Source of the DNA: an uncultured Acidimicrobiia bacterium
GTDB lineage: Bacteria > Acidobacteriota > Terriglobia > Versatilivoradales > Versatilivoraceae
NCBI GenBank assembly: GCA_963810905.1
Contig: CAWEPG010000002.1
Location: 242,178-306,177 of the forward strand
Length of the DNA: 64,000 bases
Direction of reading: 5' to 3'
A program made the translations under genes and the position numbers. Below, one piece after another: positions 3,961-34,235 of the stretch; the stretch's first letter is position 1; each line of letters begins with the position of its first letter. The notes under the pieces were generated by a model that saw nothing but the letters and a program-made list of their open reading frames with translations, was not told the DNA's origin and ran no database searches.

Positions 3961-4137
3961 CCCACTCGACACCAAAGCTACGATAGACTATAAACTCTAA
4001 ATAATATTTCCCAAACAAACCTGGAACTTTATCATTGCAGGAATCGTTTAGTCAGGCGAGGAGGAAAATTCAATGAAAAATATCGCCCGACCCGTTATCG
4101 CTATACGTTTTGGCTGCTCTAGTTTCGCTTCCCACTT

Positions 4138-4620
4138 TTGGCCCAGCAGAAGAAAGATCCCTGGCTGCATGTTGAAGTTAAGGAAAGCAAAGATGACCCG
4201 GAAACAGTCAAAATCAATCTTCCTTTCTCCATGGTCGATGTGGCCCTGAAGATCGCCCAGGACAAAAAATTGAATGGAGGGAAATTCCGGCTGAATTCGA
4301 CCGATTTGAGCGTTCCGGACCTTAAGAAGATGTGGATTGAATTCAAGAAGGCAGGAAACGCGGATTTTGTGACCGTAGAGAAGAAAACCGAAAGTGTAAA
4401 GATTTCGAGAGAAGGCAACTATCTTCTGATCAAGGTTTCCGAGAAAAACCAGCAGAAAGTCGACCTTCGAGTCCCCGTGGACGTGGTGGATGCCTTATTG
4501 GCGGCTCCCGGTGATGAGCTGGATATCAAGGCAGCCCTCGTGGCCATGCAACAAAAAGGAATTGGCGATATCCTCAGCGTGACTGACAAGGATACCAAGG
4601 TCAGGATATGGGTCGATTAA
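4138..4620 (+). CDS. Hypothetical protein with two internal repeats (SMVDVALKIAQDKK... / PVDVVDALLAAPGDE...); TTG start
   Basis: 160-aa ORF. The only in-frame start after the upstream stop at 4120-4122 is the TTG at 4138. Similar modules recur in the next gene. Confidence 0.4.
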   Translation: MAQQKKDPWLHVEVKESKDDPETVKINLPFSMVDVALKIAQDKKLNGGKFRLNSTDLSVPDLKKMWIEFKKAGNADFVTVEKKTESVKISREGNYLLIKVSEKNQQKVDLRVPVDVVDALLAAPGDELDIKAALVAMQQKGIGDILSVTDKDTKVRIWVD

Positions 4621-4644
4621 CGGCCAAACCAGTCTTTTCACTAT

Positions 4645-5074
4645 ATGACAGTCAAAACCGCCTTTAAATACATTGCCCTCGGTCTGTTGGTCCTCTTCAC
4701 TGCTGGGATCATTTACGTCATTCAGGCAGGATTCGCTATCGTCAAGGTGAGCACTCAAGACACCCGTATCTGGCTGCCGGTACCCATTGCGTTGGGCCAA
4801 CTTGTCGGGAAAATGGTGGCGCTTCCCCTGAAAGCAGGACGAGCAGTTTCAAGAATTCTGGAAATACCGGGAAGAGATTGGGCAGATTCTGCGCCTACTT
4901 CCGGGCCTACCCGATGCTGACTTTGTTGAAGTCCAAAGCGCGAAAGAACAAGTTCGGATCTTTAAACGAGGAGATTCATTTTGCATTCAAGTGACAAGCC
5001 CTGATGAGCAGGTTAATGCTCGTCTCCCAATTGAAACCATTGAACGCTTGGCTGATGTCTTTCGAGGATCCTAA
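4645..5074 (+). CDS. Hypothetical membrane-anchored protein carrying the same repeat module; apparent frameshift ~4880-4900
   Basis: An N-terminal TM helix (ALGLLVLFTAGIIYVIQAGFAIV) is followed by modules ending in motifs like those of the upstream gene (RIW..., ERLADVF). The C-terminal 60 aa continue in the +1 frame to the TAA at 5072-5074. Confidence 0.35.
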
Positions 5075-5245
5075 CCCCGATCTGGGAGATTTCTTTGCGT
5101 CTCTCAAAGGACAATCTGCTGGGGATCTGATTCACGTAAAAACCAATACCGAAGAAGTCAGAATCTCAATTTGGTAGGAAGAGCGAGCGGCACCCCCTCT
5201 CCGCAAACTGTCCTCGCAGCATTCCCTTCTACAGCTCTCCATTCG

Positions 5246-5612
5246 ATGTAGGAGCGCTCCCTATGGATTGAATAGTGATGTACCCGGAGGACCTAACGGA
5301 CCTCATCCAGAAGTTTGGGATGTTGACTTTTGCCGGGGGCAGGCATAGGATTTTTTTCAAGAATTGGCACATACTTTACGCTGTTAGTGTAATAATCGGC
5401 AAGAGGCAAGACTGCCCGAAAACCCAGCTATTATCAACTTATCAGGGCAAAATTGCCTGATAATCAATGGTTCCTCGGATGCGCATCGCCCCATCCATCG
5501 GCTCTTCGGCGCTTCGCGCCTCAGAACCATCGGATGAAGCTGCCTACTCGCCTGATAACCGGCGCGTCTCTGCACCGGTTATTTGGCTGCGCCGCGCTCA
5601 TCCGGGGCGTTA
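5246..5612. repeat. Three-copy repeat, copy 1 (5' module 5246-5505, 3' structured module 5506-5612 with perfect hairpin 5555-5582)
   Basis: ~75-90 % identical to 13591-14028 and 16333-16619. Homology ends at ...GGGGCGTTA, 17 nt before the ATG at 5630. Confidence 0.8.
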
Positions 5613-5629
5613 ACTCTTTTAGGGACATT

Positions 5630-6043
5630 ATGGAAAATACTCTCACAGTAGAATTCCGCCTAATGGGTAGAGGCTTTGTTCCAAAGGAATTGAGCCGAGA
5701 CTTGGGTATAGAATGCACTGAATATGAACTTGGCGATGATAGGAAACTGACTTTTTGGATTCTGTCCAAAACAAATACTGGGAATATCGACATAAAATCC
5801 TTATGCCAGGAGCTTATTTCTGAATTACAACCAATGCAGGAGAAGCTTTGCAGGTTGATTGAAAAGTTTGATCTGCGTCCCGACTTTTGTCTGCGACTTA
5901 AGGAAAGGCCGAGGACGAGCCACGAGGTTTTATACGGAGAACATCCAGTCATCAATTTCTGTATTGAACCTGCAACAATGCGGTTTTTGTCGGCCATTAA
6001 TGCGCCAATGTTTATAGAACACGAGTATGAAAGTGAGAGTTAA
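5630..6043 (+). CDS. DUF4279-like small protein
   Basis: ATG at 5630, in frame with the ORF-track entry 5453-6043, whose upstream part is repeat sequence. The motif EFRLMGRGFVPKELSRDLGIECTEYELGDDR fits the DUF4279 N-terminal pattern, recalled from memory. Confidence 0.45.
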   Translation: MENTLTVEFRLMGRGFVPKELSRDLGIECTEYELGDDRKLTFWILSKTNTGNIDIKSLCQELISELQPMQEKLCRLIEKFDLRPDFCLRLKERPRTSHEVLYGEHPVINFCIEPATMRFLSAINAPMFIEHEYESES

Positions 6044-6093
6044 CAAGTCTATGCGGCCGACCACTGATGCGCCGGCTGATTGAGGCGTTAGGC
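6041..6093 (+). other. attC-like site (stop-overlapping TAACAAG ... imperfect palindrome ... GTTAGGC core)
   Basis: It starts at the TAA stop of 5630-6043 and ends with a perfect GTTRRRY core (GTTAGGC at 6087-6093) 26 nt before the next ATG. Confidence 0.4.
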
Positions 6094-32106: not shown

Positions 32107-32400
32107 GTGGCACTAGTCGGCGATGGAGGGCTCGTGAAGCGCGGCGTCATCTTTTGTGACGGCACGTGGAATCAGCCGGACGAGATCACCAAGGGTATTC
32201 CCGCTCCGACTAATGTCGTCAAGCTCGCTGAAGCTGTCAGCCGAATCGGCACGGCGTCTTACAACAGGTCTATTACGACGCTGGCATTGGCTCCTCCGGC
32301 TCCATGATCCAACGCCTCTACGACGCGGGTACCGGGAGGACCAGAGCTACCGGCCACCGAAGCTCGTCGATTACTTCCACCGCCACCCCACACTGCTGTA
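32107..32400 (+). pseudogene. N-terminal remnant of a DUF2235 (Tle-like alpha/beta-hydrolase/phospholipase) gene, frameshifted and truncated
   Basis: VIFCDGTWNQPDEITKGIPAPTNVVKLAEAV and, in the +1 frame, QVYYDAGIGSSGSMIQRLYDAGTG match the DUF2235 N-terminus. Sense is lost after about 100 aa. It forms a high-GC island. Confidence 0.5.
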
Positions 32401-32508
32401 ATAAGATGTCCAGCACGTGACGCCCAACAACTATGGCATGAAACAGAACGAAATCGTTTACGGCTTTTGAGCAAGTAGTGATGCAACTTTAAGAAAAAGG
32501 AGAAATTT

Positions 32509-32880
32509 ATGAGTCAGAAGTCACTTTATGAACGTCTCGGTGGTTACGACGGTATTGCCGCTTTTACCGACGACTTACTTCCGCGTTTAAAAGCAGATAC
32601 TCAATTGGGTCGTTTTTGGAAAAATCGAGGAGAAGATGGTATGGCAAGGGAAAAGCAACTGCTCATTGATTTCTTATGTTCTTGTGCCGGCGGCCCCATG
32701 TACTACAAGGGGCGAGACATGAAATTATCACATAAAGGGATGAGAATTAGTGAAAGTGATTGGTCCATTTTCCTTGGACATGCTGGCGCCACGATGAAAG
32801 CTTTACAAGTTCCCCAGAAGGAATGTGACGAAGTGGCTGCATTCGTCTTAAGCCTAAAAGACGACATTGTTGAAGTATAG
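32509..32880 (+). CDS. Truncated haemoglobin (2/2 Hb)
   Basis: 123 aa starting SLYERLGGYDGIAAFTDDLLPRL. The proximal-His region is LSHKGMRISE. RBS AAGGAG. Confidence 0.7.
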   Translation: MSQKSLYERLGGYDGIAAFTDDLLPRLKADTQLGRFWKNRGEDGMAREKQLLIDFLCSCAGGPMYYKGRDMKLSHKGMRISESDWSIFLGHAGATMKALQVPQKECDEVAAFVLSLKDDIVEV

Positions 32881-32965
32881 TTGGAGATATAAAAAGGCAA
32901 ATTCAGCCGGGCACTTATGTATCGGCTGATTTGCAACGTGAGAGCTCCGCAGAAGGAGAACGACG

Positions 32966-33166
32966 ATGGGAAGCAGAGTTGTGCTTATCTTTATTGGAAT
33001 CGCAACGGCAAGCGTCGCAATTGTAGGCCTCATCCGAGGGAGCGTTTACTGCAAAGGCGGACCGTTCTCGCGTACGACGCAGCCCGTGGCTTTCTGGGGG
33101 TCCATCATGGTGTATCTTTTGTGGTCCGCACTTATGGGATACTTCGCGTTCTTTAGGCACGGTTGA
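32966..33166 (+). CDS. Small two-TM membrane protein
   Basis: 66-aa ORF with hydrophobic helices and RBS GGAGAA. Confidence 0.3.
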   Translation: MGSRVVLIFIGIATASVAIVGLIRGSVYCKGGPFSRTTQPVAFWGSIMVYLLWSALMGYFAFFRHG

Positions 33167-33474
33167 GCTTGATCCCATTCATGCAAAGCGCTACAGCCGA
33201 CGGCGTGTAACCACGCCGTCAAAAAGCCTAGATTCGACATTCTTGCAGTGGTGACCGCAGTTGATGCAAAATGCTAAGCGCCACCTGAGAACCAATGGCT
33301 CGTAAGCCGGGCCACAATATAGTTTCGTGGTTTGGGAAGTAGCGTTCCCGGTAAGGGCAAGGTCGGATTTCATTGGAGGAAAATGGGGAAAGGATGGGCT
33401 GTCTCACATTAGCCCACTCGTTTCACGGAGATGCACGCTGCGCATGTCTGCGTCAATCACGTTGGGGCTGATAC

Positions 33475-33876
33475 GTGAGGAACGTAATCGGGTTGAATGT
33501 GGTGATGATGAGGCAAAGGCATCTTAAATGGTTGCTGTTAGGGCTAAGCATCGTCTTGTTGATTCCGAGTGCCATCGTGATTGCCAGCATAATCCTTAGT
33601 GCGGCCAATGAGTCTGCCGGATGGCTTCGCTATAAACTTCCCGAAATATTCTTTTGGATGTTCCTCACAACCGGATTAGCTTCGCCCTTCTTGGGCATTA
33701 GTACGCTGCTATTGCTTTGGGCACAAAGGCATCAGAGTGCCATGAAGATCAGCAGCACAGTGGAGCGGAGGTTGAGAATTGCGCTAATCGTAGCTTCCAT
33801 GGCCGCAGTGATTGCGCCGGCAGTTTGGATCTTTTTTTTCAGTGAGGTCTTTTTTGTCGCAGGAGGAAATCGCTAG
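33475..33876 (+). CDS. Hypothetical membrane protein
   Basis: 133 aa with four TM helices. Last ORF of the co-oriented block. Confidence 0.4.
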   Translation: MRNVIGLNVVMMRQRHLKWLLLGLSIVLLIPSAIVIASIILSAANESAGWLRYKLPEIFFWMFLTTGLASPFLGISTLLLLWAQRHQSAMKISSTVERRLRIALIVASMAAVIAPAVWIFFFSEVFFVAGGNR

Positions 33877-34235
33877 CATTTAAGCTAGTTGGGTTACAGC
33901 CGGATATCTCCTTCCGGAAAATTTGAGTGATAAACCCTTTGAGTGAATTCTGGTTGAGCTGAAACCGAAGCCAGCAAAGGCTAAGTGAGATTAGAAGCTA
34001 TGATCCTTTCCGAGCCGGTAAAAGTATACAGAGTCAACGATCCGAGAATCCATGAGCACTGCAGCCAAGAGGTTTACCTAGTTGAGTTGGAGATTCTCTC
34101 ATTGTTAGACGAAGTGAGGTGTTGTCGATCGACTAGCCCTCGTTAAACCCACGCATTTCGCAGACACGCTCAGGCGCACATGTTGAGCGACGTCCGCGCC
34201 GCATTTTATCTCCATCAGTGGTACAAACCCACAAT

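What the first reader, a model, noticed from the sequence alone, without database searches (positions are those of the whole stretch)
4100..33900. 30-kb integron-like gene-cassette array with no integrase in the window (CALIN-like)
From 4.1 to 33.9 kb every ORF is on the + strand. The genes are small, each has its own RBS, and they are functionally unrelated: stress, detoxification, acetylation, methylation, regulators and many DUFs. GC content jumps gene by gene between ~37 % and ~68 % (6119-7480 ~42 %, 7477-8163 ~68 %, 8284-8556 ~42 %, 8758-9753 ~62 %, 9836-10255 ~37 %, 10396-12697 ~60 %), against ~50 % for metH and the rest of the contig. The spacers are imperfect palindromes that begin at the stop codon with an ...AAC core and end in GTTRRRY-type cores. 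Paralogous cassettes occur (three TfoX-N, two GNAT, two MDR oxidoreductases) along with gene fragments (DUF2235, TfoX). All of this is characteristic of chromosomal integron cassette arrays. No tyrosine recombinase (intI) or attI is visible upstream; the nearest minus-strand genes are a peptidase and an oxidoreductase. The array may therefore be a CALIN, or its integrase lies outside the window or on another replicon. Cassette arrays of this size are rarely described outside Proteobacteria, and the PVC-like core genes suggest an unusual host.
Basis: partly seen in the sequence, partly recalled or inferred. Interest (0 to 1): 0.85.

Follow-up and report, generated by a model that had tools for sequence, protein, structure and literature searches.

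The report
Decayed chromosomal integron with integrase remnants
This stretch is a worn-out chromosomal integron of an uncultured soil or sediment bacterium: a one-directional row of captured gene cassettes with genuine attC sites, broken up by three truncated copies of the integrase gene start and its attI site. It is an ordinary kind of element with an unusual internal layout.

Summary
The core observation holds. A covariance model built only from ten class 1 plasmid attC sites, and a second built only from 84 metagenomic attC sites, both find attC sites in the window. All are on the + strand, all lie between 6.0 and 28.6 kb, and they sit at ORF ends where GC content jumps.

The claim of no intI or attI is wrong. 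Three diverged repeats (5239-5470, 13503-13885, 16332-16619) each hold a truncated 5' end of an integron integrase on the minus strand, next to a conserved attI. No catalytic integrase part is present, so the locus is a CALIN with intI remnants, meaning a degenerate sedentary integron.

This attI type occurs in at least 120 metagenome contigs. There, 103 of 103 attC hits share its strand and 96 lie downstream of it. Some contigs have an intact integron integrase, and many have truncated ones.

Convincing attC sites are dense only from 6 to 21.7 kb. The 26-32 kb block is collinear, at 84-86 % nucleotide identity, with contigs from a relative, and keeps only one or two attC sites. It looks like a fossil, fixed array.

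The host looks like Acidobacteriota rather than PVC, and integrons are already reported from both. This is a new member of a known kind. The embedded integrase-attI modules are the only unusual feature.

The parts
5239..5346 (-). Truncated intI remnant 1: integrase residues about 1-36, with an in-frame stop
   Evidence: tblastn with IntI1 and with the L008 integrase N-terminus
5347..5470 (+). attI region 1. Core 5439-5470 is TTATCAGGGCAAAATTGCCTGATAATCAATGG, with the crossover after G5470.
   Evidence: DNA homology with the region upstream of intI in L007, L008 and L012 ends exactly at AATGG|TT. Exact match to the attI pattern.
5471..5615 (+). ORF-less first cassette with a 95-nt attC-like site (5521-5615)
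   Evidence: 90 % identical paralogue of 13886-14031, whose attC is supported by R3. This copy itself is below threshold.
6039..6093 (+). attC after the DUF4279 gene
   Evidence: R1 E = 0.015; R3 E = 3.7e-6
7458..7532 (+). attC after the 453-aa ORF. GC goes from 0.43 to 0.69 across it.
   Evidence: R1 E = 9e-4; R3 E = 7.7e-9
8159..8223 (+). attC after the GC-rich ORF
   Evidence: R1 E = 0.15; R2 E = 3e-4; R3 E = 1.2e-5
9769..9823 (+). attC after the Zn-ADH gene. Its outer arms are nearly identical to the aacA4 attC of class 1 integrons.
   Evidence: R1 E = 2.6e-7; R3 E = 3.6e-5. Plus-strand score 36 bits against 13 bits on the minus strand.
13503..13766 (-). Truncated intI remnant 2: residues about 12-93, with the N-terminus frameshifted
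   Evidence: tblastn. TIGR02249 integron integrase is the only family hit, E = 1.9e-8.
13767..13885 (+). attI region 2 (core 13854-13885)
13936..14031 (+). attC of the ORF-less first cassette of module 2
   Evidence: R3 E = 0.0021
14617..14684 (+). attC after the GNAT gene. The MFS start codon lies inside its R' box.
   Evidence: R1 E = 4.6e-4; R3 E = 2e-6
16332..16508 (-). Truncated intI remnant 3: residues about 12-58
   Evidence: tblastn E = 1e-5 with IntI1 and 5e-21 with the L008 N-terminus. TIGR02249 E = 5e-6.
16509..16619 (+). attI region 3 (core 16588-16619). It is followed by CG rather than TT.
17196..17264 (+). attC after the DUF1697 gene
   Evidence: R1 E = 1.7e-8; R3 E = 8.5e-8
18060..18119 (+). 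Candidate attC after the 263-aa ORF
   Evidence: Palindrome with an ATGGAGCCGACG arm seen by eye. The models give only E = 0.85-3.
20934..20999 (+). attC after the SnoaL / methyltransferase / glycosyltransferase block
   Evidence: R1 E = 1e-3; R3 E = 1.2e-4
21609..21676 (+). attC after the TPR gene
   Evidence: R1 E = 0.013; R3 E = 1.9e-6
28536..28595 (+). attC at the hydrolase/ecotin junction, in the right-hand block
   Evidence: R1 partial hit E = 0.048; R3 E = 1.3e-4
30380..30479 (+). Borderline attC just after CobW
   Evidence: R3 E = 0.12. The orthologous position in L137, L138 and L139 has an attC at E = 0.0019.
21677..33900 (+). Co-oriented small accessory genes, probably a fossil cassette block. 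In order: DUF4267, MOSC, YCII, OsmC, GNAT, TfoX_N fragment, AHSA1, ArsR-type HTH, hydrolase, ecotin, CobW, TfoX_N, alpha/beta hydrolase, globin.
   Evidence: Pfam. Window 26038-32160 is collinear with L137 at 84-86 % nucleotide identity.

Best explanation
The region is a degenerate, sedentary chromosomal integron. By IntegronFinder's definition it is a CALIN with nearby intI pseudogene fragments.

Gene cassettes were captured one at a time by an integron integrase. That enzyme recombines the folded attC of a circular cassette with attI at G|TT. Repeated capture built a one-directional array of promoterless genes of mixed origin.

The platform (intI start, promoter region and attI) is present three times in the same orientation. 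The copies are 79-86 % identical to each other and about 70 % identical to the best matching of 13 intact platforms, so they probably arose by intragenomic duplication. Each heads its own run of cassettes. All three have lost the catalytic part of intI.

The array can no longer rearrange on its own. At most it could be acted on in trans by an integrase encoded elsewhere.

The 21.7-33.9 kb part is an older stretch. Its attC sites have mostly eroded, and its gene order has been fixed since before the split from relatives that now differ by about 15 % in DNA sequence.

Shown: the attC sites, the intI fragments, the attI homology and junction, the compositional mosaic, and the synteny of the right block. 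Inferred: the history of duplication and deletion, present inactivity, and any promoter role of the retained modules.
For: **attC sites**
- Model R1, built only from class 1 plasmid attC sites, gives nine top hits. All are on the + strand within 6-29 kb, with E from 1.7e-8 to 0.15. The best minus-strand hit has E = 0.35.
- Model R3, built only from 84 metagenome attC sites, gives 10 hits at E <= 0.002. All are on the + strand, between 6039 and 28595.
- Those 84 sites show 93 % paired cells. They have 323 compensatory cells, against 45-70 in the slid controls, and invariant AAC/GTT.

**Integrase and attI**
- Three minus-strand integrase fragments were found. TIGR02249 'integron integrase' is their best family, and the only one for copy 2.
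- No catalytic part is present anywhere in the window.
- The attI DNA is conserved with L007, L008 and L012, and homology stops at AATGG|TT.
- The same attI core occurs in at least 120 metagenome contigs. In nearly all it is followed by TT and then variable sequence. Intact intI lies beside some of them.
- On 57 of those contigs, 103 of 103 attC hits share the strand of attI, and 96 lie downstream of it.
- The intI of L008 scores 328 bits on TIGR02249, above the 265-bit cutoff.

**Composition and synteny**
- GC steps coincide with the attC sites.
- The right block is collinear in relatives, with an attC after CobW there.
Against: - Long stretches have no detectable attC: 9.8-13.9, 18.1-20.9 and 21.7-28.5 kb.
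- Several cores deviate from RYYYAAC / GTTRRRY.
- attI copy 3 is followed by CG rather than TT.
- The breakpoints of the truncated intI copies show no G|TT signature, so how they were truncated is unknown.
- Promoter-like matches in the modules are no more frequent than chance.
- Cassette presence/absence polymorphism could not be tested for the 5-22 kb part.
- The model E-values come from shortened calibration and are rough.
Confidence: 0.85

Rival explanations
1. The array is still a working integron. An intact intI of the same class, elsewhere on the roughly 0.9-Mb contig or on another replicon, excises and inserts these cassettes in trans, using the three attI copies and the attC sites.
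For: - Ten attC sites still score well, and attI copies 1 and 3 deviate little from the core pattern (0 and 2 mismatches; copy 2 has 4).
- The literature notes that CALIN cassettes can be mobilised in trans (PMC4889954, PMC9668308).
- Intact intI of this class exists in nature (L009, L010, L014 and others).
Against: - No intact intI is in the 64-kb window.
- The source contig could not be fetched.
- The right-hand block has been fixed across relatives.
- Many attC sites are eroded.
Confidence: 0.25
2. Only 5.2-21.7 kb derives from an integron. The 21.7-33.9 kb part is an ordinary conserved stretch of small chromosomal genes, and its two attC-like hits are chance hairpins.
For: - Spacers are short and no attC is found at about 18 of 20 junctions.
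- Gene order is conserved in relatives.
- GC spread is smaller than in the left part.
Against: - The hit at 28536-28595 has E = 1.3e-4 on the right strand at a gene end.
- An attC at E = 0.0019 sits directly after CobW in three related contigs, at the position of the window's weak hit.
- A CobW homologue with 80 % identity sits in a completely different neighbourhood.
- GC spread is still twice that of the core.
- TfoX_N and GNAT paralogues are present.
Confidence: 0.3
3. The region is not an integron at all. It is a genomic island or an assembly chimera, and its palindromes are terminators or REP-like repeats.
For: - Composition is mosaic.
- Neighbouring genes look like pseudogenes: a split peptidase and a truncated ADH.
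Against: - Models built from unrelated known attC sites hit the region with strict strand polarity.
- Integrase fragments and attI are present.
- GC breaks fall at the attC sites.
- Terminator-like sites are no more frequent than chance.
- The right block was assembled independently in three other samples.
Confidence: 0.03

Closest known systems
CALIN (cluster of attC sites lacking an integron integrase), as defined by IntegronFinder (Cury et al. 2016, PMC4889954)
   Same: - At least two attC sites lie on one strand less than 4 kb apart, with no functional intI nearby.
- The cassettes mostly encode functions unrelated to antibiotic resistance.
   Different: - intI 5' pseudogene fragments and attI sites lie inside the cluster. 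Cury et al. found intI pseudogenes near only 15 of 279 CALINs.
- With the 4-kb rule the locus would probably be split into two or three clusters.
Sedentary chromosomal integrons with inactivated integrases, such as the Xanthomonas integrons and the 'pseudo-integrons' of Nemergut et al. 2008 (PMC2426708)
   Same: - Chromosomal location, a long array and a decayed intI.
- About one third of intI genes in genomes are reported to be pseudogenes.
   Different: - The attC sites here are heterogeneous and resemble class 1 sites. They are not one homogeneous species-specific repeat.
- Three platform remnants lie in tandem, rather than one intI at the array head.
Class 1 mobile integron cassettes and their attC sites (aadA, aadB, cmlA, aacA4)
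   Same: - The attC architecture is the same: R''-L''-loop-L'-R', with extra bases in the 5' arm and a GCCGAC-type L'' arm.
- Site 9769-9823 matches the outer arms of the aacA4 attC at 17 of 18 and 14 of 15 nt.
   Different: - No resistance genes.
- No IntI1, attI1 or 3' conserved segment.
- The attI sequence is different.
- Chromosomal, in an environmental host.
Delta-attI-type gene cassettes inside mobile integron arrays (Gonzales Machuca et al. 2026, PMC12901181)
   Same: attI-derived sites sit inside a cassette array downstream of attC sites.
   Different: - Here the whole attI plus the intI promoter region and 36-93 codons of intI are retained.
- The setting is a chromosomal environmental array.
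- Recombination activity has not been tested.

Membership tests
Integron (complete) | A gene for an integron integrase: a tyrosine recombinase with the IntI-specific additional domain | tested here: not met
   Only N-terminal fragments are present (TIGR02249 profile positions 1-68). No catalytic or IntI-specific part is found anywhere in the 64 kb.
Integron (complete) | An attI site next to intI, where cassettes are inserted at G|TT | tested here: met
   - There are three copies.
- Homology with platforms that carry intI ends at AATGG|TT.
- In at least 120 metagenome contigs the same core is followed by TT and then variable sequence, with attC arrays downstream.
- Copy 3 lacks the TT.
Integron (complete) | A Pc promoter that drives the cassettes | tested here: inconclusive
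   One TTGACT-17-TAGGAT match on the + strand (5323-5351) lies in module 1. Over the whole region, matches are no more frequent than chance.
Integron cassette array / CALIN | At least two attC sites recognised by a structure-plus-sequence model, on one strand, less than 4 kb apart | tested here: met
   - R1, built from class 1 sites only: 7 sites at E <= 0.015.
- R3, built from metagenome sites only: 10 sites at E <= 0.002.
- All are on the + strand.
- IntegronFinder's own model was not available.
Integron cassette array / CALIN | attC sites lie at the 3' ends of co-oriented ORFs, and the strand asymmetry (extrahelical bases) matches the ORF strand | tested here: met
   - The sites start at or within a few nucleotides of stop codons.
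- Plus-strand scores far exceed minus-strand scores at the same site, for example 36 against 13 bits at 9769-9823.
Integron cassette array / CALIN | No integron integrase within 4 kb | tested here: met
   No intact intI is in the window. Only pseudogene fragments are present.
Dynamic (active) cassette array | Cassette presence/absence differences between related genomes | tested here: not met
   - Window 26038-32160 is collinear with L137, L138 and L139 at 84-86 % nucleotide identity.

The most novel reading that the evidence does not exclude
The retained 'intI start + promoter region + attI' modules may be functional, propagating units of a widespread environmental integron class, not just debris. 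Embedded in arrays, they could restart transcription of distal cassettes. This would parallel class 1 integrons, where Pc lies inside the 5' end of intI1. They could also provide extra insertion points, or move as attI-type pseudo-cassettes when an integrase acts in trans.

This would explain three observations:
- Truncated modules outnumber intact integrases among contigs with this attI.
- Modules recur inside arrays (window three times, L022, L097).
- ORFs of about 100 aa that carry only the N-terminal domain are abundant in databases.
Probability: 0.2. Interest if true: 0.6.

Novelty: new member of a known kind. Interest (0 to 1): 0.4.

Why it matters
**As a cassette array:** it adds one more environmental CALIN. 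It gives a worked example of how an integron decays, with the integrase deleted, the attI kept, and the attC sites eroding while gene order becomes fixed.

**Two points with some wider value:**
- A conserved attI core (TTATCAGGGCAAAAT..C..G.TAAT.AATGG|TT) tags an apparently widespread soil and sediment integron class. MAG labels place it in several phyla. Its attC sites resemble those of clinical class 1 cassettes, which bears on where such cassettes come from.
- Truncated integrase-attI modules recur inside arrays. If they act as internal promoters or as mobilisable units, that would change how long sedentary arrays are thought to be expressed and rearranged.

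Tried and rejected
- **Rfam at gathering threshold:** no hits. I recall Rfam having no attC family.
- **Strict searches:** core-pair and palindrome searches, and ranking by folding energy, did not discriminate. GC-rich coding sequence dominates the energy ranking.
- **MAFFT alignment of raw attC candidates:** too poor to model. Three class 1 sites with long loops also misaligned. I left out blaIMP-1 and dfrA1 and used loop-trimmed versions of two others, aac(6')-Il and blaGES-5.
- **R1 sensitivity:** R1 missed the dfrA1 and blaIMP-1 attC sites in the control loci, so it is limited and a negative result is weak evidence.
- **Stand-alone protein idea:** I considered that the repeats encode a stand-alone 100-aa SAM-like protein carried on reverse-oriented cassettes, because all 120 listed database hits are 68-123 aa. 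I rejected this. The homology continues into non-coding attI DNA. Relatives show the same N-terminus fused to, or frameshifted from, a full integron integrase.
- **Truncation by attC x secondary-site recombination:** the breakpoints show no common G|TT or adjacent attC.
- **Fetching the source contig or its flanks:** this failed. The genome scan showed the source genome is not among the GTDB representatives.
- **No attC hits with R1** in L009-L012.
- **PVC host idea:** dropped.

Full report
**1. What is in the sequence**

Between 4.1 and 33.9 kb there are about 45 ORFs on the + strand. Every ORF with a Pfam match is on that strand. The ten largest minus-strand ORFs have no Pfam match and look like shadow ORFs of GC-rich genes.

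The functions are unrelated to one another. In order along the region they are:
- DUF4279, a Zn-dependent alcohol dehydrogenase, a Ser/Thr kinase with TPR repeats, a GNAT acetyltransferase and an MFS transporter.
- DUF1697, SnoaL, a methyltransferase, a glycosyltransferase, a TPR protein, DUF4267, MOSC, YCII and OsmC.
- A second GNAT, a TfoX_N fragment, AHSA1 with an ArsR-type regulator, a hydrolase, ecotin, CobW, TfoX_N, an alpha/beta hydrolase and a globin.

Composition is a mosaic:
- Per-gene GC spread is 0.086 (left part) and 0.050 (right part), against 0.026 for 20 flanking genes.
- Examples are 0.43, then 0.69, then 0.58 across 6.1-9.8 kb.

**2. Are the spacers attC sites?**

Rfam gave no hits at gathering threshold; I recall it having no attC family. 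Simple core, palindrome and folding-energy scans did not discriminate. I therefore built an independent model.

The aadA1 attC, recalled from memory, matched 1962 plasmid records at 99 % identity or more. From six plasmid loci I extracted class 1 attC sites. Ten of them, two with trimmed loops, were aligned and built into covariance model R1 with the canonical structure.

R1 contains no sequence from this window or its relatives. With filters off, its nine best hits in the 64-kb window are all on the + strand and all inside the array:

| Site | E-value |
|---|---|
| 17196-17264 | 1.7e-8 |
| 9769-9823 | 2.6e-7 |
| 14617-14684 | 4.6e-4 |
| 7458-7532 | 9e-4 |
| 20934-20999 | 1e-3 |
| 21609-21676 | 0.013 |
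| 6039-6093 | 0.015 |
| 28550-28582 (partial) | 0.048 |
| 8160-8223 | 0.15 |

The best minus-strand hit has E = 0.35.

The sites share the GCCGAC-type 5' arm and the extra bases seen in aadA, aadB and cmlA attC sites. Site 9769-9823 shares 17 of 18 and 14 of 15 nt of its outer arms with the aacA4 attC.

A third model, R3, was built from 84 attC sites found in unrelated metagenome contigs (see section 4). It again contains no window sequence. It gives ten hits at E <= 0.002, all on the + strand between 6039 and 28595, including 13936-14031 and 28536-28595. If hits fell at random over both strands of the window, ten out of ten landing in that 22.6-kb single-strand interval would have a probability of about 3e-8. 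That figure is my own calculation.

GC steps across the model-supported sites average 0.111. The comparison values are 0.032 at random core positions (0 of 5000 resamples reach the observed mean) and 0.054 at random positions inside the array (p = 0.002).

The attC interpretation is therefore well supported.

**3. The integrase is not simply absent**

The repeat finder showed a three-copy repeat at about 5.2, 13.6 and 16.4 kb. A tblastn search with IntI1 found three minus-strand matches to the integrase N-terminus, exactly inside these repeats.

Using the N-terminus of a related integrase (L008) as query, the matches are:
- Residues 12-93 at 13730-13503.
- Residues 12-58 at 16472-16332.
- Residues 1-36 at 5346-5239, with an in-frame stop.

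In NCBIfam the best family hit for the fragments, and the only one for copy 2, is TIGR02249 'integron integrase' (E = 1.9e-8 and 5e-6). No catalytic part exists anywhere in the window. No other recombinase was found among the larger ORFs.

I first wondered whether these were cassette-borne genes for a stand-alone SAM-like domain, because all 120 listed database hits are 68-123 aa long. Three observations ruled this out:
- In contig L008 the 109-aa ORF is followed by a 265-aa ORF in another frame. That ORF scores 328 bits on TIGR02249, above the 265-bit cutoff, and small genes run in the opposite direction on the other side.
- L009 and L010 carry the uninterrupted gene.
- The window repeats are also homologous to the non-coding DNA upstream of intI in L007, L008 and L012. 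That homology ends exactly at ...TAATCAATGG|TT, followed there by AGG(Y), which is a canonical G|TTRRRY junction.

Each repeat is therefore a platform remnant: a truncated intI on the minus strand, the intergenic promoter region, and attI.

Other features of the three copies:
- They are 79-86 % identical to each other, but only about 70 % identical to the best matching of 13 intact platforms. This points to duplication within this lineage.
- Copies 1 and 2 are followed by the same ORF-less first cassette, at 90 % identity.
- Copy 3 is followed by CG rather than TT.

**4. The attI class in public data**

What lies beside the core in those contigs:
- In nearly all of them the core is followed by TT and then unrelated sequence (TTAGGC, TTCGGC, TTGGGC and others).
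- About 20 have a full-length integrase span on the other side.
- About 30 have the integrase cut off at residues 21-142 although the contig continues.
- In many others tblastn found no integrase beside the core; blastn on some of these showed only 34-157 nt of platform homology.

Model R2 was built from the seven best window sites. On 57 of these contigs (376 kb) it found 103 hits at E <= 0.03:
- All 103 are on the strand of the attI core.
- 96 lie downstream of the core, in 32 contigs.
- 7 lie upstream, in L022, L097 and L049. In L022 a truncated module sits in the middle of an array, as in this window.

The 84 best sites show 93 % paired cells, against 27-43 % when the 3' partners are slid. 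They have 323 compensatory cells against 45-70, and invariant AAC/GTT. That alignment was fitted to the model, which favours pairing, but the contrast is large.

Together these results validate the attI, the attC family and their polarity.

Truncation breakpoints in 48 modules share no G|TT or adjacent attC. The truncations therefore look like assorted deletions or insertions rather than one recombination reaction.

**5. How far the array extends**

From 5.2 to 21.7 kb the evidence is dense. There are still stretches free of detectable attC (9.8-13.9 kb with the kinase; 18.1-20.9 kb with SnoaL, methyltransferase and glycosyltransferase). These may be multi-gene cassettes or may have lost their sites.

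From 21.7 to 33.9 kb most spacers are 32-67 nt. Only 28536-28595 (E = 1.3e-4) and 30380-30479 (E = 0.12) score.

Comparison with relatives:
- The CobW protein has a 100 % identical database entry on a 907-kb contig that could not be fetched.
- Three contigs carrying an 87 % identical CobW have the order AHSA1, HTH, 150-aa ORF, hydrolase, ecotin, CobW, TfoX_N, alpha/beta hydrolase. They are collinear with window 26038-32160 at 84-86 % nucleotide identity.
- This is the same divergence as the core genes of a related contig, L136.
- R3 finds an attC directly after CobW in all three contigs (E = 0.0019). This is the position of the window's weak hit.
- An 80 % identical CobW sits in an unrelated housekeeping neighbourhood.

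The simplest reading is an old cassette stretch, fixed before these lineages split, in which each lineage has kept different attC sites. An ordinary gene block with chance hairpins remains possible. I give that about 0.3.

**6. Host and prior knowledge**

The flanking genes (DUF1501, PSCyt1, PSCyt2, PSD1) suggested a PVC host. However, the DUF1501 protein's named relatives are Acidobacteriota: a Terriglobia MAG at 91 %, an Acidobacteriota MAG at 80 %, and Bryobacteraceae at 72-73 %. This rests on one core protein and on MAG labels.

What the literature already reports:
- Integrons are reported from Acidobacteriota and Planctomycetota (PMC8618304, PMC4889954, PMC9668308).
- CALINs are common, and some have neighbouring intI pseudogenes (PMC4889954).
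- About a third of genomic intI genes are pseudogenes (PMC2426708).
- Delta-attI-type cassettes inside mobile arrays have been shown to be recombination-proficient (PMC12901181).

**7. Verdict**

The locus is a degenerate integron with three embedded platform remnants, not an array with no trace of integrase. Its right-hand third is a fossil at best. The host claim does not hold.

It is a new member of a known kind. The one unusual aspect is the recurrence of truncated integrase-attI modules inside arrays of a widespread environmental integron class. Whether these modules have a function (as an internal promoter, an extra insertion site or a mobilisable unit) is untested. The promoter scan was uninformative.

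Noticed in passing
window 534-2917 (-) and 2942-3694 (-): The prolyl oligopeptidase is split into two ORFs: the catalytic domain at 534-1385 and the propeller at 1745-2917. The neighbouring Zn-ADH looks truncated at 250 aa. The left flank of the array may itself be decaying.
   Followed up: no
window 10396-12697 (+): A Ser/Thr protein kinase with TPR repeats is split into two overlapping ORFs (10396-12540 and 12068-12697). It lies inside a 4.2-kb stretch with no detectable attC. That is unusually large for a cassette.
   Followed up: no
window 9769-9823 versus L006 7998-8069: This attC shares 17 of 18 nt at its 5' end and 14 of 15 nt at its 3' end with the aacA4 (aac(6')-Ib) attC of clinical class 1 integrons.
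   Followed up: partly
L022, L049, L060, L082, L097 (left of the truncated intI): A shared ...TGACCCC motif lies 11-13 nt before the point where integrase homology stops. It may be the end of an element that inserts into intI.
   Followed up: no
Protein database hits P0001-P0120: Over a hundred predicted proteins of 68-123 aa carry only the Phage_int_SAM_4 domain. The two whose context I fetched (P0005, P0009), and several with junk C-terminal tails, are truncated or frameshifted integron integrase starts. This suggests loss of the catalytic half is common in this integron class.
   Followed up: partly
window 14681: The ATG of the MFS transporter cassette lies inside the R' box (GTTATGC) of the preceding attC. 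The recombination site therefore supplies the start codon.
   Followed up: no
window 16041-16064: A minimal R''/R' pair with no stem between the boxes (CATAACAGGCCGTTGGGC) lies after the MFS gene. It may be an attC that lost its L arms, or a hybrid site. The models give only E of about 1.
   Followed up: no
window 26059-26205 and 30498-30644: Two TfoX_N-related segments are 74 % identical. The first is a 71-aa fragment. In the relative L137 the second gene is 109 aa, against 84 aa for the longest ORF here.
   Followed up: partly
L136 3142-6425 versus window 39908-40259: A related contig carries an extra block of about 3.4 kb (a lactonase/He_PIG protein and two small ORFs) between the HtrA-like protease and the sigma-54 activator. 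The block is absent from the window.
   Followed up: no
window 38294-38321 and 41758-41785; 44908-44963 and 58788-58843; 431-475 and 3830-3874: Short dispersed repeats of 28-56 nt, 80-96 % identical, occur in intergenic DNA outside the array. Their nature is unknown.
   Followed up: no
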